The position numbers and the translations under genes are program-made. Shown here piece after piece: positions 1,561 through 32,447 of a stretch of DNA of 64,000 nucleotides. This DNA comes from Escherichia phage LYE-01. The first letter of the stretch is position 1; every line of letters starts with the position of its first letter. The stretch is from the sequence record PQ303785.1; one strand, written 5' to 3'. Below the pieces are notes generated by a model. The model did no database searches and had not been told where the DNA came from. It saw nothing but the letters and a program-made list of their open reading frames with translations.

Positions 1561-2387
<827 letters not shown>

Positions 2388-2407
2388 AATAACGCGTGGC
2401 GGAAAAT

Positions 2408-2755
2408 ATGAACTTTAATTATTATCCTATTCTATTAGAAAAAGACGCAAAACAACCAAAATGGCAGGGTCCTCAGTTTATTAAAGGCGTCTATCAATTA
2501 GTAGTTCCTAAAGACAAGATTTATAGTAGTTGTTTCACTGAATCCGCTTGCAGTATTTTCGGTAATAGTTCTCCGTATTGGAATTTTGATATAAAGCTGG
2601 ATAGAAATATTGATATTTGGTTGAAAGCTATGGATATTGACAATATCACGTTTGATGAGAATAATTATCATATTATTGGTCGTTTTTCCAAACGTGGTAA
2701 AGAATTATATTTCACGCCTGAAATTGAAAGAAAATTTGACGCTAAACCGTATTGA
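2408..2755 (+). CDS. hypothetical protein encoded by frd-td insertion, 115 aa (119 aa from GTG at 2396)
   Basis: ORF fills a 417-bp segment absent from the overlapping T4 frd/td junction; no motif recognised. Confidence 0.5.
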   Translation: MNFNYYPILLEKDAKQPKWQGPQFIKGVYQLVVPKDKIYSSCFTESACSIFGNSSPYWNFDIKLDRNIDIWLKAMDIDNITFDENNYHIIGRFSKRGKELYFTPEIERKFDAKPY

Positions 2756-2800
2756 TTATTTAGCTTCATAAAATGTATTATAATTTATATAAGGTACTAA

Positions 2801-3661
2801 ATGAAACAATACCAAGATTTAATTAAAGACATTTTTGAAAATGGCTATGAAACTGATGACCGAACAGGCACAGGAACAATTGCTTTGTTCGGTACTAAAT
2901 TACGCTGGGATTTAAGTAAAGGTTTTCCTGCAGTAACAACTAAGAAGCTCGCCTGGAAAGCTTGCATTGCTGAGCTAATATGGTTTTTATCAGGAAGCAC
3001 AAATGTCAATGATTTACGATTAATTCAGCATGATTCATTAATTCAAGGCAAAACAGTCTGGGATGAAAATTACGAAAATCAAGCAAAAGATTTAGGATAC
3101 CATAGCGGTGAACTTGGTCCAATTTATGGAAAACAATGGCGTGATTTTGGCGGTGTAGACCAAATTATAGAAGTTATTGATCGTATTAAAAAACTGCCGA
3201 ATGATAGGCGTCAAATTGTTTCTGCATGGAATCCAGCTGAACTTAAATATATGGCATTACCGCCTTGTCATATGTTCTATCAGTTTAATGTGCGTAATGG
3301 CTATTTGGATTTGCAGTGGTATCAAAGAAGTGTTGACGTGTTCTTGGGCTTGCCATTCAACATTGCATCATATGCTGCATTAGTTCATATTGTAGCTAAG
3401 ATGTGTAATCTTATTCCAGGAGATTTGATATTTTCTGGTGGTAATACTCATATCTATATGAATCACGTAGAACAATGTAAAGAAATTTTGCGTCGTGAAC
3501 CTATGGATTTATGCGAATTACAATTAAAATTTCCAGATGAATTTGATGAATGGGACACAGAATCACAGGTATTTTGGTTGAGTCAATTCGCAAAGCCGCA
3601 TAATTTTGTTCTTAACAACTATGTATCTCACCCTCCTATTAAAGGAAAAATGGCGGTGTAA
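2801..3661 (+). CDS. td: thymidylate synthase, uninterrupted (no group I intron)
   Basis: 286 aa continuous ORF, MKQYQDLIKDIFENGYETDDRTGTGT..., ends HPPIKGKMAV. Confidence 0.95.
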   Translation: MKQYQDLIKDIFENGYETDDRTGTGTIALFGTKLRWDLSKGFPAVTTKKLAWKACIAELIWFLSGSTNVNDLRLIQHDSLIQGKTVWDENYENQAKDLGYHSGELGPIYGKQWRDFGGVDQIIEVIDRIKKLPNDRRQIVSAWNPAELKYMALPPCHMFYQFNVRNGYLDLQWYQRSVDVFLGLPFNIASYAALVHIVAKMCNLIPGDLIFSGGNTHIYMNHVEQCKEILRREPMDLCELQLKFPDEFDEWDTESQVFWLSQFAKPHNFVLNNYVSHPPIKGKMAV

Positions 3662-3684
3662 TTAATTATTAATTGTGAGGATAT

Positions 3685-3948
3685 ATGATTTTACGATTTA
3701 AAGATACTTCTGGTGTAGTTCTTTTTACACTTCCTAACCCAAGCGAGTTAGAAGTTCCAGGACCAAATCAGCCTATTATAATTTATGGCAAAAAATATTA
3801 TACTCATAAAATGACTCGTGAGTATTTTGATAATAAAATTTCTACGGTTAAAACTTCTTCAGATTGTTATTATGATATTACTGTTTTAACGGAAAAACAA
3901 TATGACGAATTATTACCGCGCGGGCCGTCTATGCCAAGTAGTGAATAA
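3685..3948 (+). CDS. hypothetical protein, 87 aa
   Basis: ORF between td and nrdA; overlaps next ORF by 47 nt. Confidence 0.45.
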
Positions 3949-4228
3949 ATATAAATCCGACTTTGATGTTAATATTCACCGTGGTACATTTTGGGGAAAT
4001 TACGTCGGTAAAGATGCTGGCAGCCGGGAGGCTGCCATTGAATTATTCAAAAAAGATTTTATACGTCGAATTAAATCCGGAGAAATAACTAAAGCACATT
4101 TAGAGCCTTTACGTGGAATGAGGCTAGGATGCACATGTAAACCAAAGCCGTGTCATGGTGATATAATAGCTCATATAGTTAACCGATTGTTTAAAGACGA
4201 TTTTCAAGTTGAGGACTTATGCAATTAA
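3902..4228 (+). CDS. hypothetical Cys/His-motif protein, 108 aa
   Basis: ORF with C-x-C-x5-C-H-G-D motif; stop overlaps nrdA start. Confidence 0.5.
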
Positions 4229-6483
4229 TTAATGTTATCAAAAGTAGTGGTGTTTCTCAAAGCTTTGACCCGCAAAAAATTATTAAAGTTTTATCTTGGG
4301 CAGCTGAAGGAACATCTGTAGATCCTTATGAATTATATGAAAATATTAAATCATATCTCCGTGATGGAATGACAACTGATGACATTCAGACTATTGTCAT
4401 TAAGGCTGCTGCGAATTCTATTTCAGTTGAAGAGCCTGATTATCAATACGTAGCTGCACGCTGTTTAATGTTTGCTCTTCGTAAACATGTGTACGGACAA
4501 TATGAACCACGTTCATTTATTGACCATATTTCTTACTGTGTAAATGAAGGTAAATACGACCCTGAACTGTTGTCAAAATATTCAGCAGAAGAAATTACAT
4601 TTTTAGAATCAAAAATTAAGCACGAACGGGATATGGAATTTACTTATTCCGGGGCGATGCAATTAAAAGAAAAATATCTCGTTAAAGATAAAACCACTGG
4701 TCAAATTTATGAAACTCCACAGCTTGCATTTATGACTATTGGAATGGCATTGCATCAAGATGAACCTGTTGACAGATTAAAACATGTTATTCGTTTTTAT
4801 GAAGCAGTATCTACTCGACAGATTTCATTGCCAACTCCTATTATGGCTGGTTGTCGTACTCCAACTCGGCAGTTTAGTTCATGCGTTGTTATTGAGGCAG
4901 GTGATTCGCTGAAGTCTATCAACAAAGCTTCTGCTTCAATTGTTGAATATATCTCCAAACGAGCTGGAATTGGCATTAACGTTGGTATGATTCGTGCCGA
5001 AGGTTCTAAGATTGGCACAGGTGAAGTGCGTCATACTGGTGTTATTCCTTTTTGGAAACATTTTCAGACTGCTGTTAAATCATGTTCACAGGGCGGAATT
5101 CGTGGCGGCGCTGCTACTGCTTATTATCCTATTTGGCATTTGGAAGTTGAAAATCTTCTCGTTTTGAAAAATAACAAAGGCGTAGAAGAAAACCGTATCC
5201 GTCATATGGATTATGGTGTCCAGCTGAATGATTTGATGATGGAACGTTTTGGAAAGAACGACTACATTACTTTGTTCAGTCCGCATGAAATGGGTGGCGA
5301 GCTTTATTATTCTTATTTTAAAGACCAAGACCGTTTCCGTGAATTATACGAAGCAGCAGAAAAAGATCCTAATATTCGTAAAAAGCGTATTAAAGCTCGT
5401 GAACTATTTGAATTGCTCATGACTGAACGCTCAGGAACAGCAAGGATTTATGTGCAGTTCATTGATAATACGAATAACTATACTCCGTTTATTCGTGAAA
5501 AGGCACCTATTCGTCAGAGTAACTTGTGTTGTGAAATTGCTATTCCAACAAATGATGTGAATAGTCCTGATGCTGAAATTGGATTGTGCACGTTATCTGC
5601 ATTTGTGTTGGATAACTTCGATTGGCAAGACCAAGATAAAATTAATGAATTAGCAGAAGTTCAAGTTCGCGCTCTTGATAATCTTTTGGATTACCAAGGA
5701 TATCCAGTTCCTGAAGCAGAAAAAGCTAAAAAGCGTCGAAATCTTGGTGTAGGTGTTACCAACTATGCAGCTTGGCTGGCAAGTAACTTTGCTTCTTATG
5801 AAGATGCTAACGATTTAACACATGAACTATTTGAGAGATTACAGTATGGACTCATTAAAGCATCCATTAAGCTCGCCAAAGAAAAAGGACCTTGCGAATA
5901 TTATTCAGACACTCGTTGGTCTCGAGGCGAATTACCTATCGACTGGTACAATAAAAAGATTGACCAAATCGCAGCTCCAAAATACGTTTGTGACTGGTCG
6001 GCGCTGCGGGAAGACCTTAAGCTCTTTGGCATCCGTAATAGCACATTATCAGCACTTATGCCATGTGAGTCATCTTCCCAAGTTTCTAACAGTACAAACG
6101 GTATCGAGCCTCCACGTGGACCAGTCTCTGTTAAAGAATCAAAAGAGGGTTCCTTTAATCAAGTCGTGCCCAATATTGAACATAACATAGACCTATATGA
6201 TTATACGTGGAAATTAGCTAAGAAAGGTAATAAACCTTATCTTACGCAGGTAGCTATTATGCTGAAATGGGTATGTCAATCAGCTTCAGCGAATACATAT
6301 TATGACCCGCAGATTTTTCCAAAAGGAAAGGTTCCAATGTCTGTAATGATTGATGACCTTTTGTACTTTTGGTATTTTGGCGGAAAAAATTTCTATTATC
6401 ATAATACCCGTGATGGTTCTGGTACTGATGATTATGAAATAGAAACTCCAAAAGCTGAAGATTGTTCATCCTGTAAATTATGA
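4219..6483 (+). CDS. nrdA: ribonucleotide reductase large subunit
   Basis: 754 aa, T4 NrdA length, class Ia RNR features, position. Confidence 0.95.
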   Translation: MQLINVIKSSGVSQSFDPQKIIKVLSWAAEGTSVDPYELYENIKSYLRDGMTTDDIQTIVIKAAANSISVEEPDYQYVAARCLMFALRKHVYGQYEPRSFIDHISYCVNEGKYDPELLSKYSAEEITFLESKIKHERDMEFTYSGAMQLKEKYLVKDKTTGQIYETPQLAFMTIGMALHQDEPVDRLKHVIRFYEAVSTRQISLPTPIMAGCRTPTRQFSSCVVIEAGDSLKSINKASASIVEYISKRAGIGINVGMIRAEGSKIGTGEVRHTGVIPFWKHFQTAVKSCSQGGIRGGAATAYYPIWHLEVENLLVLKNNKGVEENRIRHMDYGVQLNDLMMERFGKNDYITLFSPHEMGGELYYSYFKDQDRFRELYEAAEKDPNIRKKRIKARELFELLMTERSGTARIYVQFIDNTNNYTPFIREKAPIRQSNLCCEIAIPTNDVNSPDAEIGLCTLSAFVLDNFDWQDQDKINELAEVQVRALDNLLDYQGYPVPEAEKAKKRRNLGVGVTNYAAWLASNFASYEDANDLTHELFERLQYGLIKASIKLAKEKGPCEYYSDTRWSRGELPIDWYNKKIDQIAAPKYVCDWSALREDLKLFGIRNSTLSALMPCESSSQVSNSTNGIEPPRGPVSVKESKEGSFNQVVPNIEHNIDLYDYTWKLAKKGNKPYLTQVAIMLKWVCQSASANTYYDPQIFPKGKVPMSVMIDDLLYFWYFGGKNFYYHNTRDGSGTDDYEIETPKAEDCSSCKL

Positions 6484-19033: not shown

Positions 19034-19302
19034 TGTTTGTTGTTCATACTATTTATGAAAATGAAGGTAATACTACACGTGATTACGGTCACGTAAATCA
19101 ATTTTTTAGATGCAATCCAGAATTCCGTGCTCAAAAAGACGAACGAATTTTTAAAAAATGTGTAGAACAAGGTTTCATTTACGTCAAGCACTGGATGCAA
19201 GGAAATAAAGTTAGAACTACATATCATAGGTCTTTGCCTGAGCTTAATGATGAATTGATTTATAATAGAGCTGTAAACCAAACCTTGAAGGATGAGCAAT
19301 GA
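19033..19302 (+). CDS. hypothetical protein, 89 aa
   Basis: ORF, coupled to ligase gene. Confidence 0.45.
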   Translation: MFVVHTIYENEGNTTRDYGHVNQFFRCNPEFRAQKDERIFKKCVEQGFIYVKHWMQGNKVRTTYHRSLPELNDELIYNRAVNQTLKDEQ

Positions 19303-20759
19303 TTCTTAAAATTCTGAATGAAATAGCATCTATTGGATCAACTAAGCAGAAGCAAGCAATTCTTGAAAAGAATAAAGATAATGAATTGCTTAAACGAGTA
19401 TATCGTCTGACTTATTCTCGTGGGTTACAGTATTATATCAAGAAATGGCCTAAGCCTGGTATTGCTACCCAGAGTTTTGGAATGCTGACTATTACCGATA
19501 TGCTTGACTTCATTGAATTCACGTTAGCTACTCGGAAATTGACTGGAAATGCAGCAATTGAGGAATTAACTGGATATATCACTGATGGTAAAAAGGATGA
19601 TGTTGAAGTTTTGCGTCGGGTTATGATGCGAGACCTTGAATGCGGTGCTTCAGTATCTATTGCAAACAAAGTTTGGCCAGGTTTAATTCCTGAACAACCT
19701 CAAATGCTGGCAAGTTCTTATGATGAAAAAGGCATTAGTAAGAATATCAAGTTTCCAGCCTTTGCGCAGTTAAAAGCAGATGGAGCTCGGTGTTTTGCTG
19801 AAGTCCGAGGCGATGAATTAGATGATGTTCGTCTTTTATCGCGAGCTGGTAATGAATATCTAGGATTAGATCTTCTTAAGGAAGAGTTAATCAAAATGAC
19901 TGCTGAAGCCCGCCAGATTCATCCAGAAGGTGTGTTAATTGATGGCGAATTGGTATACCATGAGCAAGTTGAAAAGGAACCAGAAGGCCTAGATTTTCTT
20001 TTTGATGCTCCTGAAATCAGTAAAGCTAAAGAGTTTGCCGAAGTAGCTGAATCTCGTACTGCTTCTAATGGAATCGCTAATAAATCTTTAAAGGGAACTA
20101 TTTCAGAAAAAGAAGCCCAATGTATGAAGTTTCAGGTCTGGGATTATGTTCCGTTGGTAGAAATATACGGTCTTCCGGCGTTTCGTTTAAAATATGATGT
20201 ACGTTTTTCTAAACTAGAACAAATGACATCAGGATATGATAAAGTAATTTTAATTGAAAACCAAGTAGTAAATAACCTAGATGAAGCTAAGGTAATTTAT
20301 AAAAAATATATTGACCAAGGTCTTGAAGGTATTATTCTCAAAAATACCGATGGATTGTGGGAAAATGCTCGTTCAAAAAATCTCTATAAATTTAAAGAAG
20401 TAATTGATGTTGATTTAAAAATTGTAGGAATTTATCCTCACCGTAAAGACCCTACTAAAGCGGGTGGATTTATTCTTGAATCAGAGTGTGGAAAAATTAA
20501 AGTAAATGCTGGTTCAGGCTTAAAAGATAAAGCCGGTGTAAAATCACATGAACTTGACCGTACTCGCATTATGGAAAACCAAAATTATTATATTGGAAAA
20601 ATTCTAGAGTGCGAATGCAATGGTTGGTTAAAATCTGATGGTCGCACTGATTACGTTAAATTATTTCTTCCAATTGCGATTCGTTTACGTGAAGATAAAA
20701 CTAAAGCTAATACATTCGAGGATGTATTTGGTGATTTTCATGAGGTAACTGGTTTATGA
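19299..20759 (+). CDS. 30: ATP-dependent DNA ligase
   Basis: 486 aa, MILKILNEIASIGSTKQKQAIL...; adenylation lysine motif KADGAR. Confidence 0.95.
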   Translation: MILKILNEIASIGSTKQKQAILEKNKDNELLKRVYRLTYSRGLQYYIKKWPKPGIATQSFGMLTITDMLDFIEFTLATRKLTGNAAIEELTGYITDGKKDDVEVLRRVMMRDLECGASVSIANKVWPGLIPEQPQMLASSYDEKGISKNIKFPAFAQLKADGARCFAEVRGDELDDVRLLSRAGNEYLGLDLLKEELIKMTAEARQIHPEGVLIDGELVYHEQVEKEPEGLDFLFDAPEISKAKEFAEVAESRTASNGIANKSLKGTISEKEAQCMKFQVWDYVPLVEIYGLPAFRLKYDVRFSKLEQMTSGYDKVILIENQVVNNLDEAKVIYKKYIDQGLEGIILKNTDGLWENARSKNLYKFKEVIDVDLKIVGIYPHRKDPTKAGGFILESECGKIKVNAGSGLKDKAGVKSHELDRTRIMENQNYYIGKILECECNGWLKSDGRTDYVKLFLPIAIRLREDKTKANTFEDVFGDFHEVTGL

Positions 20760-20944
20760 AAGCTTACTTAGAAACAATTGTCGTGGCTCAAAAAGAAGGT
20801 GGAGATGTTTCTACTTCGGTATCACAAGTCATTCTCGAATTTGTAGATGCATATGCTTATAATAAATTTACAGAAACATTTGATGCCTACGAAAAAGGTC
20901 CAAAGTTTGAAATATATCGTACTCTCTTACCACTAGATTATTAA
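20756..20944 (+). CDS. hypothetical protein, 62 aa
   Basis: ORF overlapping ligase stop. Confidence 0.45.
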   Translation: MKAYLETIVVAQKEGGDVSTSVSQVILEFVDAYAYNKFTETFDAYEKGPKFEIYRTLLPLDY

Positions 20945-20966
20945 AGGCCTTCGGGCCTTTAATTTT
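20944..20966 (+). terminator. Rho-independent terminator closing the early gene block
   Basis: AAGGCC TTCG GGCCTT hairpin then T-rich tract. Confidence 0.6.
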
Positions 20967-20973
20967 ATAAATA
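20966..20973 (+). promoter_or_regulatory. late promoter TATAAATA upstream of Alt-like genes
   Basis: Exact TATAAATA 24 nt upstream of ATG 20997. Confidence 0.5.
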
Positions 20974-20996
20974 GAATAAACACTAGAGAGGATATG

Positions 20997-23090
20997 ATGG
21001 AACTCATTACAGAATTATTTGACGAAGATACTACTCTTCCGATTACAAACTTAAATCCAAAGAAGAAAATACCACAAATTTTTTCAGTTCATGTTGATGA
21101 TGCAATTGAACAACCAGGCTTTCGTTTATGTACCTATACATCTGGAGGTGATACTAATCGCGATTTAAAAATGGGCGATAAAATGATGCATATTGTTCCT
21201 TTTACATTAACTGCTAAAGGTTCAATTGCTAAATTAAAAGGTCTCGGTCCAAGTCCAATTAATTACATCAATTCAGTTTTTACTGTTGCAATGCAGACGA
21301 TGCGTCAGTATAAAATTGATGCCTGTATGCTTCGTATTCTTAAGTCTAAAACTGCTGGTCAAGCTCGACAAATTCAAGTTATTGCTGATAGACTTATCCG
21401 TAGTCGTTCAGGTGGCAGATACGTCCTTCTTAAGGAACTCTGGGATTACGATAAAAAGTACGCATATATTCTTATACATCGCAAAAATGTATCACTAGAA
21501 GACATTCCAGGAGTTCCGGAAATTAGTACCGAGCTTTTTACTAAAGTCGAATCGAAGGTCGGCGATGTTTATATCAATAAAGATACTGGAGCTCAAGTAA
21601 CTAAAAATGAAGCAATTGCAGCATCTATTGCGCAAGAAAATGATAAACGTTCTGACCAAGCTGTAATCGTTAAAGTTAAAATTTCCCGTAGAGCAATTGC
21701 GCAAAGTCAATCATTAGAATCTTCTAGATTTGAAAGCGAATTATTCCAGAAGTATGAATCTACCGCAGCCAATTTTAATAAGCCTGCTACTGCTCCTTTA
21801 ATTCCAGAAGCAGAAGAAATGAAGCTTGGAATTAATTCATTAGCTTCTAAAACTAAGGCAGCAAAAATCATTGCCGAAGGAACCGCAGATGAACTTCACT
21901 ATGACTATAAATTCTTTTCAAAAAGTGAGGTTAATGAAGTTTCTGAAAAAATTAAAGATGTAATTCTTAATGCGATTAAAAATGAACCAACTACTTCAAT
22001 AAAATGTTTAGAGAAATACGCAGCAGCTGTTAATCAATTCTTTGAAGAATATAAAGATAATTGGCTTGATAAACATAATAAAACTCGTAAAGGACAGCCA
22101 GATGAAGTCTGGGAAGAAATAACTAAAAATTCCTGGAACGCAGCAAAAACTAAATTCCTCAAACGAATGATTTATAGCTTTTCTGGAATTGGTGCAGGTC
22201 CAATGATTGATATTACCATTGCCCGTGATGGTTCTAAATACACTCCATCGCAAAAGCGCGGAATTAGAGAGTATTGCGGATCAGGATATACTGACATCAA
22301 TAATCTTCTTTTAGGCCGCTACAATCCAGAACGATATGATGTAATGAGTGAAAAAGAAATTGAATCTGCGATAAATAATTTAGATTCAGCTTTTGAAAAT
22401 GGTGACCGTATACCAGAAGGCATTACAGTTTATCGTGCTCAAAGTATGACTGCTCCTATATATGAAGCACTAGTTAAAAATAAAGTGTTCTATTTCAGAA
22501 ATTTTGTATCTACTTCTTTAACTCCTATCATTTTTGGACGTTTTGGAATTACACATGCTGGTATCGGTCTTTTAGAACCAGAAGCTCGCAATGAATTAAC
22601 AGTTGATAAAAATGAAGAAGGAATAACTATTAATCCAAACGAAATAAGAGCGTATAAAGAAAATCCTGAATACGTTAAAGTTCAAATAGGATGGGCTATT
22701 GATGGAGCTCATAAAGTTAATGTTGTATATCCAGGAAGTCTCGGAATAGCAACAGAAGCTGAAGTTATTCTACCACGCGGATTGATGGTCAAAGTTAATA
22801 AAATAACTGATGCTTCTAATAATGATGGAACAACATCTAATAATACAAAACTCATTCAAGCTGAAGTTATGACTACGGAAGAACTCACCGAATCGGTAAT
22901 TTATGACGGTGACCGTCTAATGGAAACTGGTGAATTGGTTGCAATGACAGATGATATTGAAATAGAAGACAGAGTTGACTTTGCATCATTTGTTTCATCA
23001 AATGTTAAACAGAAAGCAGAATCATCTCTCGGAATTATTGCGTCTTGCATAGATATTACAAACATGCCTTACAAGTTCGTTCAAGGATAA
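20997..23090 (+). CDS. Alt-like ADP-ribosyltransferase paralog A (R-S-EXE type), about 697 aa
   Basis: N-terminal MELITELFD... region shared with the downstream paralog; C-terminal motifs VYRAQ, FVSTSL, EAEVILPRG. Confidence 0.8.
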   Translation: MELITELFDEDTTLPITNLNPKKKIPQIFSVHVDDAIEQPGFRLCTYTSGGDTNRDLKMGDKMMHIVPFTLTAKGSIAKLKGLGPSPINYINSVFTVAMQTMRQYKIDACMLRILKSKTAGQARQIQVIADRLIRSRSGGRYVLLKELWDYDKKYAYILIHRKNVSLEDIPGVPEISTELFTKVESKVGDVYINKDTGAQVTKNEAIAASIAQENDKRSDQAVIVKVKISRRAIAQSQSLESSRFESELFQKYESTAANFNKPATAPLIPEAEEMKLGINSLASKTKAAKIIAEGTADELHYDYKFFSKSEVNEVSEKIKDVILNAIKNEPTTSIKCLEKYAAAVNQFFEEYKDNWLDKHNKTRKGQPDEVWEEITKNSWNAAKTKFLKRMIYSFSGIGAGPMIDITIARDGSKYTPSQKRGIREYCGSGYTDINNLLLGRYNPERYDVMSEKEIESAINNLDSAFENGDRIPEGITVYRAQSMTAPIYEALVKNKVFYFRNFVSTSLTPIIFGRFGITHAGIGLLEPEARNELTVDKNEEGITINPNEIRAYKENPEYVKVQIGWAIDGAHKVNVVYPGSLGIATEAEVILPRGLMVKVNKITDASNNDGTTSNNTKLIQAEVMTTEELTESVIYDGDRLMETGELVAMTDDIEIEDRVDFASFVSSNVKQKAESSLGIIASCIDITNMPYKFVQG

Positions 23091-23093
23091 ATC

Positions 23094-25151
23094 ATGGAAC
23101 TTATTACAGAATTATTTGACGGCGCTTCGGCGCCGGTTGTTAACTTAAATCCTAAGCATAAAATACCTCAAATTTTTGCTATTCAAGCAGGCGAAGAAAG
23201 CGTGCTTCCTGGATTTAGATTTTGTACATACACCTCTGGCGGTGATACAAATAAAAACGTTAAGCCAGGCGATAAAATGATGCATATCGTAATGATAGGT
23301 GTCAATGAGAAACTATCATTAGTTAAACTTAGAAACTTGGGTGGAAATCCAATTGGTGTCATTAATGCGGTTTTTGATACTGCTCTTCAGACAATGAAAC
23401 AATACAAAATTGACGCATGCTTATTCCGCGTACTAAAGAGTAAAACAAATGGTGCAGCTCGTCAAATGCAAGTTATTGCCGACCGTTTAGTACGTACTAA
23501 AGGAGCAGGTCGATATGTTCTTTTAAAGGAAATCTGGGATTACGATAAAAAGTACGCATATATTATGGTTTACCGTAAAAATGCTAATTTAGAAGACATT
23601 CCAGGTGTACCTCCTATTTCAACTGAGTTATTCACAAAAGTTGAATCAAAGGTTGGTGATGTTTATGTAGATGTTAAAACAGGTAATGCTGTTCCTAAAG
23701 CTGTTGCTGTTGCTGCTTCTATTGCTTTAGAAAATGATAAGCGCACGGATCAAGCTGTTATTCAGAAAACTAAAATTAGTCGTCGGTTAGCAGCACAAGC
23801 TCAATATTCTACTGTCGATGCTTCACTTCAGGGTGATAGCTTCGCTGCTAAGAAATATCAAGAGTTTGAATCTAAAGTTCCGGTATATAAAGCAGAAGGA
23901 CCAATGAACTCTGGCGTTATTCAGGTTGGTTCAAACTTCAGCAAAGGAGCTATCGGTGGTATGAGAAGTGCTTCCCGTTTTAAATCTAGTGATTATGAAT
24001 TAGAAAGCTTCCGAAATCATATTGCATTGGCTCATGCGCGTTTACGTGATCCATCTATCAAGTTACAGAGCGATATATCATATCAAGGTTCTCAAGAATA
24101 TTTAAAGAATAAAGAATTTTTTGATTATAAAACTGATAAAATTTTAAGTGATCTTGCTGACATTAATATTTCTAATAGCTTTGATGTTATTAAGAAAATT
24201 GTCAATGATTTAGTTAAAGGTTCTAAAGCCACACCAGATGAAAAGGTAGCTATTGTTCAATTTGTCATGAATGGCGTTTATAAATTGATTAATGAGTCTG
24301 CTTCTCAAGCGTATGAATATGCAAGTACTGAAGTAACTCCAAAAGGATTAACTCAGGCTGAGTCTGATGTAATTGAAGATTATTGTGCAGATTCATATGT
24401 TGAAATGAACTCGTTCCTTTTAGGTAAACCGGATTCTACTCGTGAAGAATACATGGAACGAGCTATTAAACACATCGAGACAATGGATTCTGCCTTTGCC
24501 AAAGGATCAGTTCTTCCTCCAGGAACTACACTTTACCGTGGACAAGAAGTTACCTTTAAAACTTTACGTCATAATATTGAAAATAAAATGTTCTACTTCA
24601 AGAACTTCGTATCCACATCGCTTAAACCAAATATCTTCGGTGAGTATGGTAAAAACTATATGGCTCTAGATGATTCCGGCGCAGTATTTTCTGGTGAAGG
24701 AGAAGGTTCAGTTGACGCAGAAGATTTGATGCATATGGGCAGTCACTCTGCTTATGCGAATGAAGATGCTGAAACTAGCGTGGGTATGGTAATTAAAGGA
24801 GCTGAGCGAATCAAAGTTATCGTTCCAGGACATTTATCAGGATTTCCATCAGAAGCTGAAGTTATTTTACCGCGTGGAATTTTGCTGAAGATTAATAAAG
24901 TGAGTACGTACATGATGAAAGAAACTGCTTATAATAAGTATCTAATCGAAGGCACAATCGTTCCTCCTTCTGAACAATTAGAAGAATCGGTATATGATGG
25001 CGACCATCTAATGGAAACTGGTGAAGTTCGTCCAATGGCTGGATTTAATCAATTCCTTGTAGAAGAATCAAAAGAAGAGGAAAACGAAGTTTCTCAAATC
25101 TTGGCTTCTTTGGTTAACATCAACGGAATGTCTAAAAAGTTCAAGATGTAG
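23094..25151 (+). CDS. alt: Alt-like ADP-ribosyltransferase paralog B (probable alt), 685 aa
   Basis: MELITELFD... N-terminus; LYRGQ, FVSTSL, EAEVILPRG motifs; adjacent to gene 54 as T4 alt. Confidence 0.75.
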   Translation: MELITELFDGASAPVVNLNPKHKIPQIFAIQAGEESVLPGFRFCTYTSGGDTNKNVKPGDKMMHIVMIGVNEKLSLVKLRNLGGNPIGVINAVFDTALQTMKQYKIDACLFRVLKSKTNGAARQMQVIADRLVRTKGAGRYVLLKEIWDYDKKYAYIMVYRKNANLEDIPGVPPISTELFTKVESKVGDVYVDVKTGNAVPKAVAVAASIALENDKRTDQAVIQKTKISRRLAAQAQYSTVDASLQGDSFAAKKYQEFESKVPVYKAEGPMNSGVIQVGSNFSKGAIGGMRSASRFKSSDYELESFRNHIALAHARLRDPSIKLQSDISYQGSQEYLKNKEFFDYKTDKILSDLADINISNSFDVIKKIVNDLVKGSKATPDEKVAIVQFVMNGVYKLINESASQAYEYASTEVTPKGLTQAESDVIEDYCADSYVEMNSFLLGKPDSTREEYMERAIKHIETMDSAFAKGSVLPPGTTLYRGQEVTFKTLRHNIENKMFYFKNFVSTSLKPNIFGEYGKNYMALDDSGAVFSGEGEGSVDAEDLMHMGSHSAYANEDAETSVGMVIKGAERIKVIVPGHLSGFPSEAEVILPRGILLKINKVSTYMMKETAYNKYLIEGTIVPPSEQLEESVYDGDHLMETGEVRPMAGFNQFLVEESKEEENEVSQILASLVNINGMSKKFKM

Positions 25152-25180
25152 TTTACAAGTCACTCGTGTTGTGTTATAAT
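25151..25180 (+). promoter_or_regulatory. T4-type early promoter (near-identical copy of the alc promoter element)
   Basis: GTTTACA -35, 17-nt spacer, TATAAT -10; 54-nt element 25151-25204 differs from 9332-9385 at about 5 positions. Confidence 0.55.
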
Positions 25181-25211: not shown

Positions 25212-25502
25212 ATGAAATCTTCTTTGCGCTTTTTAGGTCAAGAACTCGTAGTTGAAGGCGTTATTCCTGCTGATAACGCTTTTAATGAAGCGGTTTACGA
25301 CGAATTTATCAAAATTTTTGGAACAGATAAAAAGTTCGGAATTTTTCCTTCTGAAAATTTTTCAAAGCCAGAACAGACTGAAAGCATTTTCCAAGGTGTA
25401 GTAACAGGTAAATTTGAGTCAGAAGCTCCGGTAAAAATTGAAGTTTATATTGAAGACAGTTTAGTTGCTTCAGTTGCTGCTTTTATTTCATTCCGTAAAT
25501 AA
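25212..25502 (+). CDS. hypothetical protein, 96 aa
   Basis: ORF with GAGGAA RBS directly downstream of the early promoter copy. Confidence 0.55.
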   Translation: MKSSLRFLGQELVVEGVIPADNAFNEAVYDEFIKIFGTDKKFGIFPSENFSKPEQTESIFQGVVTGKFESEAPVKIEVYIEDSLVASVAAFISFRK

Positions 25503-25506
25503 AAAT

Positions 25507-25528
25507 ATGGGGACCTTTCGGTCCCCAT
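25507..25528. terminator. bidirectional hairpin terminator between convergent genes
   Basis: ATGGGGACC TTTC GGTCCCCAT between the + strand ORF and gene 54. Confidence 0.6.
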
Positions 25529-25530
25529 TG

Positions 25531-26496
25531 TTATATTGCTCCTAATATTTTACTTTGCGAATTGACAATTCCTGTCATAGTATTAATGTTTGAAATGCTT
25601 CCTGCAGTTCCTCCTAATCTACTAAGTCGTGAAAGCGAATTAGATAGTCCAGTAACACCTCCACTATTTCCGAGAACGCTTTGAATACCGTTTATAGCAG
25701 CAGATTCAAGCCATTCAAGAGCAGCTTGTCTATCAACCGCTCCAGCCTGCATGACTCTATACGCAAAAGTAACATCAAATGTAGTTATTTGGTTATCTCC
25801 ATCGTATGATAACTCAGGAGCGCTCACTGACACTGGAATGCATCCAGTGAACATCACCGCAGTATGAGGCAATCCATTGCGAGCATGAAGATTAACTTGA
25901 ATATCTGCTTCAACATCTTGTGGTAAAGCACGTAATCCAGTTACTGGGTCTTGAACAGCGTTAACCCAGTCTTGCATCGCACGATAATTACACGACTCTG
26001 AATCCATTCTAAATGAAATAACCAAAGGGTCTAATTCTCTTCCGGTTATGCGAATATTAGGAGAATTATAGTTCCAGTCAGTTTCATAGGATAATCTATT
26101 CTCTGGCATTTTTACGGAGTATATCATCAATCCAGATGAGTTATATGCCATGTTAAAGAAGTCAATTAAATATGTACCAACTGTAAATGAGCCTAATAAA
26201 CTTTGAACTGTACGTTGACTCATGGCACCAATAAGATATTTACTAACCCCTGATTTTCTTATCAGTTTTTGTGTGCCAGCAGTAATTAGCGTAGTAATTC
26301 CCTGATTAATATCGCCTTGAGTTAATCCTAACCAATCTGAATTTAGGCCCAAGTTATTATAAGAAAAGTTGCTAATTGAACTTATCAACGAAGAGCTTTT
26401 AGTTGATGGAGTTGTCGCAAAAACGCAGCTAAACATATTATTACGTTGGAAATCTGCGTTTATTGCTTGATTATTAAATTCCTCTAAAGAATACAT
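25531..26496 (-). CDS. 54: baseplate tail-tube initiator gp54
   Basis: 321 aa, size and synteny with T4 gp54. Confidence 0.85.
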   Translation of the reverse strand: MYSLEEFNNQAINADFQRNNMFSCVFATTPSTKSSSLISSISNFSYNNLGLNSDWLGLTQGDINQGITTLITAGTQKLIRKSGVSKYLIGAMSQRTVQSLLGSFTVGTYLIDFFNMAYNSSGLMIYSVKMPENRLSYETDWNYNSPNIRITGRELDPLVISFRMDSESCNYRAMQDWVNAVQDPVTGLRALPQDVEADIQVNLHARNGLPHTAVMFTGCIPVSVSAPELSYDGDNQITTFDVTFAYRVMQAGAVDRQAALEWLESAAINGIQSVLGNSGGVTGLSNSLSRLSRLGGTAGSISNINTMTGIVNSQSKILGAI

Positions 26497-27590
26497 TAAA
26501 AAGTCCCCGCATATAAAGAAGCACGGTTTAACGTGATAATTTCTCTCATAGTAATCTCAAGAGTAAATGTACTAGGGAGGTTTGGAGCAATAGCTAATCC
26601 GTTAAAGTTACCATTAGGTGTTTTATCAAATCTGATGCTCTGTATTTGGCATGGGCCAAATATTTCCGTTTTTCCATCAAACTTAGATGTTGCACCAAAG
26701 TTTTTCACCATCCAAATTGTCGGGTTTGAAACTACTAGAACGTTAGTTAAACTCGATGTCATTTTCTCAAATAGTGTTTTATTTTTAGCTGCGTCTTCCG
26801 GAGATAAAGGTTCAATTAACGTAGAACGATACCAATCATCTAAATACCCCTTTATTTCAGCAGCATATTGAGATTTGCCCGTTTCACCATAAGAAAAATA
26901 GTTAAAATATTGATAGATATTAATAATAGCCATTAAATCTTCTGTGGAACGTGGAGTCAAATCCCATGTAAACACTTTAGTTCTATTTTCAGCGCCGCCA
27001 TACATACTTCTGGCTGTCGTATAAATCTGTTCATTATTATCAGCCATTATACCTTGTGTTATACTTTCCAGTGCTCCAAATACTGCAGTTGAAGCAATAT
27101 TACTTAGCACACCAGTAGCAGTACCTCCGCCTCTGCTGATAAGACTTTCTTGAACATCATTAAATCTATGTGATGATGTATCAACATCGGATTTAGATCT
27201 TGGTAAAAGAATATTTGCAACAGGGGCTTTACTTATTGTTCCTGAATTATTATCTGATATTAATCCATTTGACAGTTTTGATACTGTATTACTGATAGTG
27301 TTTCTGGCTGTACGTAAAATACTCGAAGATGAAGAAGAGTAGTTAGATCTCATCGATCTAAGACTTCCAGAATCCCTAGATGACATATTGTACGCAGTAA
27401 ATAATAATCCATTCTTATATAGATCTGTTACCTGGAAGTCCCCTGTAGTGTCATTACCACTAGCACGCCCAGTTGGAAACTGGGCAGTGTATGTTTTAGT
27501 TGCTACTTCTGATTTAGTACTCTGTCCGGCTGAAATTTTCTCACCGGACTTTTTAATTAAATCAGCAGTTATTTCTTTAACAATTGCCAT
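26496..27590 (-). CDS. 48: baseplate tail-tube cap gp48
   Basis: 364 aa, size and synteny. Confidence 0.85.
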   Translation of the reverse strand: MAIVKEITADLIKKSGEKISAGQSTKSEVATKTYTAQFPTGRASGNDTTGDFQVTDLYKNGLLFTAYNMSSRDSGSLRSMRSNYSSSSSSILRTARNTISNTVSKLSNGLISDNNSGTISKAPVANILLPRSKSDVDTSSHRFNDVQESLISRGGGTATGVLSNIASTAVFGALESITQGIMADNNEQIYTTARSMYGGAENRTKVFTWDLTPRSTEDLMAIINIYQYFNYFSYGETGKSQYAAEIKGYLDDWYRSTLIEPLSPEDAAKNKTLFEKMTSSLTNVLVVSNPTIWMVKNFGATSKFDGKTEIFGPCQIQSIRFDKTPNGNFNGLAIAPNLPSTFTLEITMREIITLNRASLYAGTF

Positions 27591-31021: not shown

Positions 31022-31770
31022 TATTGTTTATCCTTCTCAATCAGTTTTAATACGAATCCGCGCTCGGCAGGAATCATTTTCATTATTGAATTTAAGCTAT
31101 AATTACTTTTTACGAGTGTGTGATTAATTTGATAAAAAGTAAATATTTCATCTGGGTTAACTAATAGCTTAAACACATCTACTATATCAGTGTATTTTTT
31201 TACATACTTATCACAGCAGGACATATGTAGCGTTAAATTAATAGGATTCAATGCATCGAGAATTTTTTCTAATGTTTCTATCTCGATGGCATCAACAAGT
31301 TCTATTTGACTTGATTCACTAATTTCCTTCCAATCATACCATGTTTCATCTACTTGAACAGAATGAATATTTTCAGTAATCATCTTTGCTTTATTTTCAT
31401 AAAACTCAGAAGGAAACTTTAATTTAATTTTAACATTAGCTACATCGAAAACAGGTTCCTTTAATTCTTTTTGATATATTTCAAATGGAACTGTCTTTTC
31501 TTTTTTACATTTTGGACATACAAATGTGACCGGTACTTTAGTTTTACCTATTGATCCTACAAATACCTGCAAAAATATAAATGGTTGCCAAGTCTTCGGA
31601 TAGTCTCCAAAATAATCGGCAATTAAATCAGCAATTATTTCTTTTTGTTCTTGTGGTGACCGATGTTCTATATCGTTTCGAACTAACAAAAAATCTCGAT
31701 AATCTTCTACCGTAAATGGTTTAAAACGATGAACACCATCTGGTAATTTACAACGAATAATGTTTGCCAT
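31021..31770 (-). CDS. 51: baseplate hub assembly catalyst gp51
   Basis: 249 aa, size and synteny. Confidence 0.85.
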
Positions 31771-31787: not shown

Positions 31788-31799
31788 TATTTATAAATA
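31788..31799. promoter_or_regulatory. palindromic bidirectional late promoter TATTTATAAATA
   Basis: Contains TATAAATA on both strands between divergent genes 51 (-) and 26 (+). Confidence 0.5.
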
Positions 31800-31820: not shown

Positions 31821-32447
31821 ATGTATGAATACAAATTTGACGTGAGAGTTGGTTCTAAAATAATCAACTGTCGCGCATTTACTCTTAAAGAATATCTAGA
31901 ACTTATTACTGCTAAAAAGAACGGTTCAGTCGAAGAAATTGTTAAAAAGCTAATTAAAGACTGTACAAATGCAAAAGATTTAAACCGTCAAGAATCAGAA
32001 CTCTTGTTGATTCATTTATGGGCACATTCTCTTGGAGAAGTTAATCACGAAAACTCCTGGAAGTGCACCTGTGGAACTGAAATACCAACCCATATAAATC
32101 TATTACATACACAAATAGATGCACCAGAAGACCTCTGGTATACACTGGGTGACATTAAAATTAAGTTCCATTACCCTAAAATTTTTGATGATAAAAATAT
32201 AGCCCACATGATAGTATCATGCATAGAAACGATTCATGCTAACGGGGAAAGCATTCCAATTGAAGACTTGAATGAAAAAGAGTTGGAAGATTTATATTCT
32301 ATCATCACAGAGTCAGATATTGTAGCTATAAAAGATATGCTTTTAAAGCCTACTGTTTATTTGGCTGTTCCAATTAAGTGTCCAGAGTGTGGAAAATCTC
32401 ACGCTCATGTAATAAGAGGACTCAAAGAATTCTTTGAGCTATTGTAA
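31821..32447 (+). CDS. 26: baseplate hub subunit gp26
   Basis: 208 aa, size and synteny. Confidence 0.85.

What the first reader, a model, noticed from the sequence alone, without database searches (positions are those of the whole stretch)
20966..25151. Tandem Alt-like ADP-ribosyltransferase paralogs behind a late promoter
Two adjacent about 690-aa ORFs share a conserved N-terminal about 230 aa (MELITELFD..., roughly two-thirds identical by eye). The 31-nt stretch CTGGGATTACGATAAAAAGTACGCATATATT is identical in both (21440-21470 and 23534-23564). Both carry complete arginine-specific ART signatures (R: VYRAQ / LYRGQ; S-T-S: FVSTSL; EXE: EAEVILPRG) in otherwise divergent C-terminal domains (about 22260-22790 and 24380-24880). 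An exact TATAAATA late promoter sits at 20966, consistent with T4 Alt being a late, capsid-packaged protein injected with the DNA. Two distinct injected ARTs would imply two different target specificities. I cannot say from memory whether the T4 reference carries the second full-length paralog.
Basis: partly seen in the sequence, partly recalled or inferred. Interest (0 to 1): 0.55.

Follow-up and report, generated by a model that had tools for sequence, protein, structure and literature searches.

The report
Two tandem injected Alt ADP-ribosyltransferase genes
This T4-like phage carries two adjacent, intact genes for Alt-type ADP-ribosylating enzymes that are probably packed into the capsid and injected with the DNA; the arrangement is real, but it is already annotated in hundreds of T-even phage genomes and only the job of the second enzyme is still unknown.

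Summary
Two co-oriented ORFs (20997-23090, 697 aa; 23094-25151, 685 aa) sit 3 nt apart behind TATAAATA at 20966. Their first 238 residues are 67.5% identical. A 32-nt stretch is identical in both. Both keep the R / S-T-S / E-x-E triad of arginine-specific ADP-ribosyltransferases (ARTs).

The window is a Tequatrovirus. Gene 1 is the T2-type allele of alt. Gene 2 is the gene that GenBank records call Alt2, altB or full-length alt.-2. It occurs at full length in about 400 of 543 matching phage records, including T2 and T6.

The T4 reference lacks it. T4 alt.-1/alt.-2 is what remains after a 1.69-kb internal deletion.

The duplication is old: dS between the copies is saturated, and the same tandem occurs in Dhakavirus. 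Both copies are under strong purifying selection (omega about 0.02-0.09).

Both keep the two prohead-protease (gp21) cleavage motifs mapped by mass spectrometry in T4 Alt. Packaging and injection of both is therefore the best inference, though it is not shown. Different substrates are likely but untested.

Two points I did not find in the papers I searched: the ART domains behave as exchangeable cassettes on a conserved N-terminal domain, and the 32-nt repeat is the crossover site of a natural Alt1/Alt2 fusion gene (phage ECML-134).

Verdict: real, ordinary, already known.

The parts
20940..20963 (+). Stem-loop (10 bp, UUCG loop) followed by U-rich tail, just after alt.1; probable intrinsic terminator that insulates the alt operon from upstream early transcription
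   Evidence: RNA fold -13.5 kcal/mol, z -3.5, 0 of 200 shuffles as stable. It was not flagged by the simple terminator scan. Nolan 2006 (PMC1524935) reports a terminator upstream of alt conserved in 5 of 6 T4-like genomes.
20966..20973 (+). T4-type late promoter TATAAATA for the alt operon
   Evidence: Sequence read directly and motif search. The same position is annotated 'T2 late promoter' in X69893.
20997..23090 (+). alt (Alt1), T2-type allele, 697 aa (an in-frame ATG at 20994 gives 698 aa). N-domain residues 1-238 (20997-21710), variable helical middle, ART domain about residues 411-632 (22227-22892), C-terminal propeptide 633-697 (22893-23087). R480 at 22434-22436, STS at 22509-22517, EAE at 22755-22763.
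   Evidence: 96.5% nt identity to the T2 alt record X69893 over window 20964-23138; 95.9% (T2) and 96.5% (T6) over the middle/ART part. 72% aa identity to T4 Alt.
23094..25151 (+). Second paralog (Alt2 / altB / full-length alt.-2), 685 aa. N-domain residues 1-238 (23094-23807), helical middle 239-415, ART domain 416-631 (24339-24986), predicted C-terminal propeptide 632-685 (24987-25148). R482 at 24537-24539, STS at 24612-24620, EAE at 24852-24860.
   Evidence: Its 90%-identity cluster has 772 member sequences. GenBank notes call it 'ADP-ribosyltransferase Alt2'.
23083..23087 (+). AAGGA Shine-Dalgarno for Alt2, inside the last codons of Alt1. The stop of Alt1 and the start of Alt2 are 3 nt apart.
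   Evidence: Sequence read directly. No terminator-like site was called between 22200 and 25500, and the promoter-like matches there were no more frequent than in shuffles.
21439..21470 (+). 32-nt stretch identical to 23533-23564 (codes ...LWDYDKKYAYI...), Alt1 copy
23533..23564 (+). 32-nt stretch identical to 21439-21470, Alt2 copy; site of the crossover that made the single hybrid alt gene of phage ECML-134
   Evidence: in ECML-134 the left flank is Alt1-type and the right flank Alt2-type, and the switch falls inside this run.
21006..21014 (+). I-T-E(6) prohead-protease (gp21) cleavage motif at the N-terminus of Alt1. The identical motif in Alt2 is at 23103-23111.
   Evidence: Cleavage at ITE-6 was mapped by mass spectrometry in T4 Alt (PMC5694885).
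22884..22892 (+). L-T-E(632) C-terminal gp21 cleavage motif of Alt1, aligned with T4 LTE-619. The aligned L-E-E(631) of Alt2 is at 24978-24986.
   Evidence: T4 cleavage at LTE-619 is reported in PMC5694885. My numbering reproduces the published 68.2 kDa mature mass.

Best explanation
The region is a late operon that encodes two capsid-delivered arginine-specific mono-ADP-ribosyltransferases.

Expression: transcription starts at the gp55-type late promoter TATAAATA (20966). It runs through alt and Alt2, which are separated by 3 nt and probably translationally coupled.

Architecture, the same in both proteins:
- a 6-residue N-terminal propeptide ending in I-T-E;
- an alpha/beta N-domain of about 230 aa, found only in Alt-family proteins;
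- a variable helical middle;
- a C3/VIP2-type R-S-ExE ART domain;
- a disordered C-terminal tail of about 55-65 aa that begins at an L-x-E motif.

Inferred mechanism, by analogy with T4 Alt: both proteins are built into the prohead scaffolding core, trimmed at both ends by the gp21 protease (predicted mature sizes 70.1 and 69.1 kDa), kept in the filled head and ejected with the DNA. There they ADP-ribosylate arginines of host proteins before any phage gene is expressed. The two enzymes share the delivery parts but differ in the parts that contact substrate, so they most likely modify different host targets.

Shown here: gene structure, homology, conserved catalytic and cleavage motifs, purifying selection, age and distribution.

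Inferred, not shown: packaging and processing of Alt2, its enzymatic activity, and its targets.

The tandem state is ancestral for Tequatrovirus and Dhakavirus. T4 is a derived deletion variant.
For: Family membership:
- Pfam ADPrib_exo_Tox matches both proteins, and both match phrog_802 over their full length.
- An AF2 model of Alt2 (pLDDT 73) finds Vis, Certhrax, C3bot, CDTa, iota and VIP2 ARTs by Foldseek.
- A family profile aligns YRG and E-A-E with the catalytic motifs of solved ARTs.
- R482, S507, S509, E587 and E589 are at least 90% conserved in 59 family representatives.

Operon: late promoter as annotated for T2, a 3-nt gap, and no terminator-like site or notable promoter match between the genes.

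Packaging logic:
- T4 Alt is cut by gp21 at ITE-6 and LTE-619 (PMC5694885).
- Both motifs are kept at the aligned positions in Alt1 (ITE6, LTE632) and Alt2 (ITE6, LEE631) and in Dhakavirus altA/altB.
- E6 and E631 are at least 90% conserved across the family.
- The Alt2 model is disordered from residue 629 on.
- The N-domain occurs in only 69 clusters among 1.84 billion representatives, nearly always at the N-terminus of proteins of 600-712 aa. 57 of 59 of these carry the ART domain.

Functional maintenance:
- omega is 0.03-0.06 for Alt2 orthologs and 0.02-0.09 for Alt1 orthologs.
- Alt2 is present at full length in 401 records.

Different specificity:
- The ART domains are 36% identical and the middle regions unrelated.
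- The ARTT-loop residue at -3 from the first Glu is aromatic in Alt2/altB (F/Y, as in C3 YPGQYE) but Ile in Alt1 and Pro in T4 Alt.
[quoted passage not shown] Alt variants are therefore not interchangeable (10.1101/2025.11.20.689424).

Age:
- dS between the paralogs is 1.3-1.5.
- The same tandem sits in the same gene order in JS10 and dhabil.
Against: - I found no direct evidence that Alt2 protein is in virions, is cleaved, or is active. No paper in the searched library deals with it.
- Alt2 has been lost at least twice independently (T4/slur03-type deletion, sutha-type deletion), and the Alt1 catalytic part was lost once (ECML-134). Each copy is therefore dispensable on some hosts.
- Different targets are inferred from sequence divergence only.
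- The AF2 model is of moderate confidence (pLDDT 73, pTM 0.58), built from a shallow alignment of 24 sequences.
Confidence: 0.8

Rival explanations
1. Alt2 is a redundant or decaying duplicate. It adds dosage of the same activity as Alt, or nothing, and is on its way to the pseudogene state seen in T4.
For: T4 and slur03 carry only a stop-riddled N-terminal remnant. Phage sutha has an independent deletion. About a quarter of matching records lack the Alt2 body (401 of 543). T4 grows well without it.
Against: The ORF is intact in about 400 records. omega is 0.03-0.06 with dS up to 0.25-0.35 between orthologs. All catalytic residues are kept. An ortholog is kept in another genus. The ART domain is only 36% identical to Alt1 and has a different ARTT loop, which is not what dosage redundancy predicts.
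Confidence: 0.1
2. Alt2 is made late but is not packaged. It acts inside the producing cell late in infection, as an intracellular ART comparable to ModA/ModB.
For: Expression from a late promoter is compatible with this reading. No proteomic evidence for Alt2 in capsids was found.
Against: Alt2 keeps the whole Alt-specific N-domain, the identical first nine residues MELITELFD with the ITE-6 site, and the C-terminal L-x-E site with a disordered tail. These features are shared with the packaged T4 Alt, and the two termini are processed by gp21 in T4 (PMC5694885). The natural ECML-134 hybrid (Alt1 N-part plus Alt2 body) is the only alt gene of that phage.
Confidence: 0.08
3. The similarity of the two N-terminal regions and the 32-nt identity reflect recent gene conversion or an assembly artefact, not two long-standing genes.
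For: The 32-nt run is longer than expected (24 of 5000 shuffles). N-domains group by genome rather than by ortholog, which suggests some past homogenisation.
Against: The same arrangement is found at 93-99% identity in hundreds of independently sequenced genomes. N-domain dS between the copies is saturated at 1.47. The run differs by only 1-3 synonymous changes between the copies in other phages, so it is a conserved patch, not an artefact of this assembly.
Confidence: 0.02

Closest known systems
Bacteriophage T4 Alt (gpAlt, NP_049811), the capsid-packaged NAD+:arginine ADP-ribosyltransferase
   Same: Gene 1 of the window has the same position (between alt.1 and gene 54), the same late promoter, an N-domain identical but for one residue (99.6%), a C-terminal tail 92% identical, the same R/STS/ExE triad and the same two gp21 motifs. 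Gene 2 has the same architecture and motifs.
   Different: Gene 1 carries a different middle-plus-ART cassette (34% and 66% aa identity; dS above 1 there against 0.11-0.15 in the flanks). It has E-A-E where T4 has E-M-E. Gene 2 is only 42% identical overall, and T4 keeps it only as the alt.-1/alt.-2 remnant.
Alt of phages T2 and T6 (X69893; AP018814; PV648364)
   Same: Gene 1 is this allele: 96.5% nt identity to the T2 alt record and ART-domain aa identity of 100%. T2 and T6 also carry the full-length second gene directly downstream.
   Different: Nothing of substance. The window's closest full match is vB_EcoM_NBG2 at 98.3%.
'Alt2' (BASEL phages Bas41, Bas45), 'altb' (JS10), full-length 'alt.-2' (RB14, RB51)
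   Same: Gene 2 is this gene: same position and 93-99% nt identity within Tequatrovirus. JS10 altB is the Dhakavirus ortholog, with 57% ART identity against 38% to Alt1.
   Different: None of these has a published function that I could find.
T4 ModA / ModB
   Same: R-S-ExE mono-ARTs of the same clade, which also act on host proteins (PMC5512222).
   Different: By established knowledge of T4, ModA and ModB are small proteins of about 200 aa, expressed early, not packaged, and encoded elsewhere in the genome. No comparison with them was run here.
C3 exoenzymes and the enzymatic components of binary toxins (VIP2, iota Ia, CDTa, BECa), Vis, Certhrax
   Same: Same catalytic fold and motifs (Foldseek E 1e-7 to 1e-5, probability 1.0; profile alignment of YR and ExE).

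Membership tests
R-S-ExE (C3/VIP2-type) arginine-specific mono-ADP-ribosyltransferases (Pfam PF03496) | Significant match to the family profile | tested here: met
   Alt1 129 bits and Alt2 73 bits, against a cutoff of 23.4.
R-S-ExE (C3/VIP2-type) arginine-specific mono-ADP-ribosyltransferases (Pfam PF03496) | Catalytic Arg, Ser-Thr-Ser and Glu-x-Glu in the right order and aligned with those of solved enzymes | tested here: met
   Alt1 R480/S505-S507/E587-E589; Alt2 R482/S507-S509/E587-E589. The profile aligns the Arg and the ExE with C3cer QYE and BECa EYE. The STS was not covered by that alignment and is assigned by motif and family conservation.
R-S-ExE (C3/VIP2-type) arginine-specific mono-ADP-ribosyltransferases (Pfam PF03496) | ART fold | tested here: met
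   Alt2 model: Foldseek hits with probability 1.0 to Vis, C3bot, CDTa, iota and VIP2, TM-score on target 0.55-0.70 for single-domain ARTs. The model has moderate confidence. Alt1 was not modelled.
R-S-ExE (C3/VIP2-type) arginine-specific mono-ADP-ribosyltransferases (Pfam PF03496) | NAD-dependent transfer of ADP-ribose to arginine | not testable with these tools
   Needs an enzyme assay. E-x-E (rather than Q-x-E) predicts arginine, from established ART biochemistry.
Alt family of T4-like phages (phrog_802; N-domain + ART) | Full-length architecture: Alt-specific N-domain, middle region, ART domain, C-terminal tail | tested here: met
   Both proteins match phrog_802 end to end (E 2e-272 and 1e-254). 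Homologs found with the Alt2 query carry the precomputed domains PF26846 + PF03496.
Alt family of T4-like phages (phrog_802; N-domain + ART) | Genomic position between gene 30/alt.1 and alt.-3/gene 54, late promoter | tested here: met
Alt family of T4-like phages (phrog_802; N-domain + ART) | gp21 cleavage motifs at both ends (ITE-6, LTE-619 in T4) | tested here: met
   The motifs are present at aligned positions in both proteins. Actual cleavage was not tested.
Alt family of T4-like phages (phrog_802; N-domain + ART) | Presence in the virion and ejection with the DNA | not testable with these tools
   Known for T4 Alt (PMC9958956, PMC9026906). I found no data for the second paralog.
Alt family of T4-like phages (phrog_802; N-domain + ART) | ADP-ribosylation of RNA polymerase alpha and other host proteins | not testable with these tools
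   Experimental. The literature covers T4 Alt only.

The most novel reading that the evidence does not exclude
The alt locus is a two-slot delivery platform. A conserved, genome-specific chassis (N-domain plus two gp21-removed propeptides) carries ART cassettes that are swapped within and between genera. Under this reading Alt2 is a second injected enzyme with its own host targets, plausibly a counter-defence effector, whose presence or absence and allele shape host range.

Patterns that fit this reading:
- ART domains group by ortholog while N-domains group by genome.
- The Alt1 ART domain is 93.5% identical to Dhakavirus altA, against about 60% for flanking genes.
- T4-type and T2-type cassettes sit in otherwise near-identical genes.
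- A natural crossover occurred at the 32-nt repeat.
Probability: 0.5. Interest if true: 0.5.

Novelty: already known. Interest (0 to 1): 0.25.

Why it matters
T4 is the reference for this group of phages, and T4 happens to be the member that lost the second enzyme. Work on injected ADP-ribosyltransferases has therefore looked at one enzyme, while most natural T-even phages (T2 and T6 among them) deliver two.

If Alt2 has its own targets, it is an unexplored part of the first seconds of host takeover. It may also contribute to defence evasion, since a preprint reports that T4 Alt helps evade the Mokosh type I defence system and that another phage's Alt does not substitute for it.

None of this makes the present finding new. 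The gene pair is annotated and has been noted in the literature since 2006.

Tried and rejected
- phmmer of Alt2 against PDB sequences found nothing at E <= 0.01. A family profile was needed.
- NCBIfam has no model for either protein.
- The local Pfam copy does not hold the N-domain family PF26846 that the precomputed annotations list, so I could not read its name.
- I tested whether the N-domain is a general delivery module fused to other effector types. It is not: 57 of 59 representatives carry the same ART family.
- Literature searches for 'Alt-like', 'Alt2', 'alt.-1/alt.-2' and virion proteomics found no functional study of the second paralog.
- The simple terminator scan did not call the hairpin upstream of the promoter. 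Folding supports it.
- I considered a recent duplication or an assembly artefact and rejected both (saturated dS; hundreds of independent genomes).
- The published inactive T4 mutant is named E577A (PMC11404850). In my numbering of NP_049811 the motif is E574-M-E576. I could not resolve this offset of one.
- I did not determine whether Bas37_0033 of the HIDEN-SEQ preprint is the first or the second gene of that phage.

Full report
**What is there.** The window is a stretch of a Tequatrovirus (T-even) genome. Around the finding the gene order is as follows:

| Feature | Coordinates |
|---|---|
| gene 30, DNA ligase | 19299-20759 |
| alt.1 | 20756-20944 |
| hairpin | 20940-20963 |
| TATAAATA | 20966-20973 |
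| first ART gene | 20997-23090 |
| second ART gene | 23094-25151 |
| alt.-3 | 25212-25502 |
| genes 54 and 48, opposite strand | 25531-27590 |

A 4.9-kb query covering the region matches 543 phage records. 374 of them match over at least 80% of the query. The best is vB_EcoM_NBG2 at 98.3%. Many records annotate 'Alt-like RNA polymerase ADP-ribosyltransferase (x2)'.

**Check of the observation.**
- The two proteins are 41% identical overall (E 4e-157).
- Identity is 67.5% in residues 1-238, about 18-21% in the middle, about 36% in the ART domain and about 39% in the tail.
- The 31-nt string occurs exactly twice, at the stated places. The identical run is 32 nt and is longer than codon-column shuffles give (24 of 5000).
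- Both proteins match Pfam ADPrib_exo_Tox. Both have R, S-T-S and E-A-E at Alt1 480/505-507/587-589 and Alt2 482/507-509/587-589.
- A profile built from the family aligns the Arg and the E-x-E with the catalytic motifs of solved C3-type and binary-toxin ARTs.
- An AlphaFold model of Alt2 finds these same enzymes by Foldseek.
- The TATAAATA at 20966 corresponds to the site annotated as 'T2 late promoter' in the T2 alt record.
- The first gene most likely starts at the second ATG (20997), as annotated in T4 and PP01.

**Relation to T4, T2 and T6.** The first gene is the T2/T6 allele of alt: 96.5% nt identity to the T2 alt record, with an ART domain 100% identical in protein. Compared with T4 Alt, the N-domain is 99.6% identical and the C-terminal tail 92%. 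Residues about 240-637 are a different cassette, with 34% and 66% identity. dS exceeds 1 there, against 0.11-0.15 in the flanks. In the phage collection the T2-type cassette is found in 316 records and the T4-type in 175.

The second gene is absent from the T4 reference. T4 alt.-1/alt.-2 translate to the first ~55 residues of the window's Alt2, after which frame shifts and stop codons set in. The nucleotide alignment shows that T4 and slur03 lack the equivalent of window 23442-25131. The T4 GenBank note already calls alt.-1/alt.-2 an old duplication of the first part of alt. T2 and T6 carry both full-length genes. The Alt2-specific part is present over at least 80% of its length in 401 records.

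**Age and selection.** Between the two paralogs dS is saturated (1.3-1.5), even in the conserved N-domain. The same tandem, annotated alta/altb, sits in the same gene order in Dhakavirus phages JS10 and dhabil. altB is closer to Alt2 (ART 57%) and altA to Alt1 (ART 93.5%) than either is to the other paralog (34-38%).

Among orthologs within Tequatrovirus, omega is 0.03-0.06 for Alt2 and 0.02-0.09 for Alt1. Both are thus old genes under purifying selection, not a recent duplicate or a decaying one.

Losses do occur:
- the T4/slur03 deletion;
- an independent deletion in phage sutha (window 23088-25023 equivalent);
- a single hybrid gene in ECML-134, in which the Alt1 N-part is fused to the Alt2 body.

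**How it most likely works.** T4 Alt is a component of the prohead scaffolding core (about 40 copies). It stays in the head and is ejected with the DNA (PMC9958956, PMC9026906). Mass spectrometry showed that gp21 removes six N-terminal residues at ITE-6 and 63 C-terminal residues at LTE-619, giving a mature protein of 68.2 kDa (PMC5694885). My numbering reproduces that mass.

Both motifs are kept at the aligned positions in the window's Alt1 (ITE6, LTE632) and Alt2 (ITE6, LEE631), and also in altA/altB. E6 and E631 are at least 90% conserved in 59 family representatives. The Alt2 model becomes disordered at residue 629.

The N-domain is found in only 69 clusters of 1.84 billion representative proteins, nearly always at the N-terminus of proteins of 600-712 aa. 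57 of 59 of these carry the ART domain. It has no confident structural relative in the PDB.

The two genes are 3 nt apart, with a Shine-Dalgarno sequence for the second inside the end of the first. There is no terminator-like site and no notable promoter match between them.

From this I infer that both proteins are made late from one transcript, targeted to the prohead, trimmed by gp21 to about 70.1 and 69.1 kDa, and injected. Packaging, processing and activity of Alt2 are inferences, not observations.

**Different specificity.** This is plausible but untested.
- The substrate-facing parts differ: the middle regions are unrelated and the ART domains 36% identical.
- The ARTT-loop residue three positions before the first catalytic Glu is aromatic in Alt2/altB (F/Y, as in C3 'YPGQYE' and BECa 'YKNEYE'). 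It is Ile in Alt1/altA and Pro in T4 Alt. In C3-like ARTs this loop is known to take part in substrate recognition (established knowledge).
- A 2025 preprint reports that T4 Alt helps evade Mokosh type I and that the Alt of phage Bas37 does not substitute for it (10.1101/2025.11.20.689424). I did not establish which Alt type Bas37_0033 is.

**Points I did not find in the papers I searched.**
1. N-domains group by genome: 65-67% within a genome, against 42-46% between Tequatrovirus and Dhakavirus orthologs. ART domains group by ortholog. The Alt1 ART region (residues about 399-638) is 85-96% identical in nucleotides to JS10 altA. Flanking genes of the two phages are only 58-64% identical in protein. 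Together with the T4-type/T2-type dimorphism, this points to exchange of ART cassettes on a conserved chassis.
2. The 32-nt identical run is where the ECML-134 hybrid switches from Alt1-type to Alt2-type sequence. In other phages the two copies differ there by only 1-3 synonymous changes. The run therefore acts as a recombination site between the tandem copies.

**Known or new.** Already known.
- Nolan et al. 2006 noted T4 alt.-1/alt.-2 and full-length alt duplications in T4-like phages (PMC1524935).
- Jin et al. 2014 listed Alt duplications in Ac42, JS98 and Bp7 (PMC4177764).
- JS10 is annotated alta/altb, RB14 has a full-length 'alt.-2', and BASEL phages are annotated 'Alt' and 'Alt2'.

I found no functional study of the second paralog in the searchable library. 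That remains an open and easily testable question.

The interest score is low (0.25) because a specialist would not be surprised by the arrangement.

Noticed in passing
window 25152-25180 and 25212-25502: A near-consensus sigma-70/T4-early-type promoter (TTTACA, 17 nt, TG-TATAAT; 11 of 12) starts right after the Alt2 stop codon and precedes alt.-3 (96 aa, Pfam DUF5498). alt.-3 can therefore be expressed early on its own as well as by late read-through. In T4, C-terminal extensions of Alt.-3 are the escape mutations against the CmdTAC defence system (PMC11618068).
   Followed up: partly
window 25507-25528: A perfect 9-bp GC-rich hairpin scores as a terminator on both strands, between the convergent alt.-3 and gene 54. 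It is probably a bidirectional terminator ending the alt operon.
   Followed up: no
window 20756-20944: alt.1 (62 aa) matches the Pfam family 'Phage_blade' (PF24647, E 2e-29). Several GenBank records label this small protein 'siderophore-interacting protein', which looks like a propagated mis-annotation.
   Followed up: no
L005 (ECML-134) 2281-4341; L006 (sutha) 2925-5128: Natural rearrangements of the tandem. ECML-134 has one hybrid gene (Alt1 N-part to about residue 158, then Alt2). Sutha has Alt1 followed by a 38-codon remnant of the Alt2 C-terminus.
   Followed up: yes
L011 (JS10) 3321-5405 versus window 22190-22910: The ART domain of Dhakavirus altA is 93.5% identical in protein (85-96% in nucleotides) to the window's Alt1. 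Neighbouring genes (ligase, alt.1, alt.-3, gp54) are only 58-64% identical in protein. This suggests lateral exchange of the ART cassette between genera.
   Followed up: partly
window 31788-31799: Two overlapping TATAAATA motifs on opposite strands (31788-31795 minus, 31792-31799 plus), between divergent ORFs ending at 31770 and starting at 31821. They look like back-to-back late promoters in the baseplate gene cluster.
   Followed up: no
T4 Alt residue numbering: The published catalytically dead T4 mutant is called Alt E577A (PMC11404850). In the RefSeq protein as translated here the motif is E574-M575-E576 and residue 577 is Val. The offset of one is unexplained.
   Followed up: no
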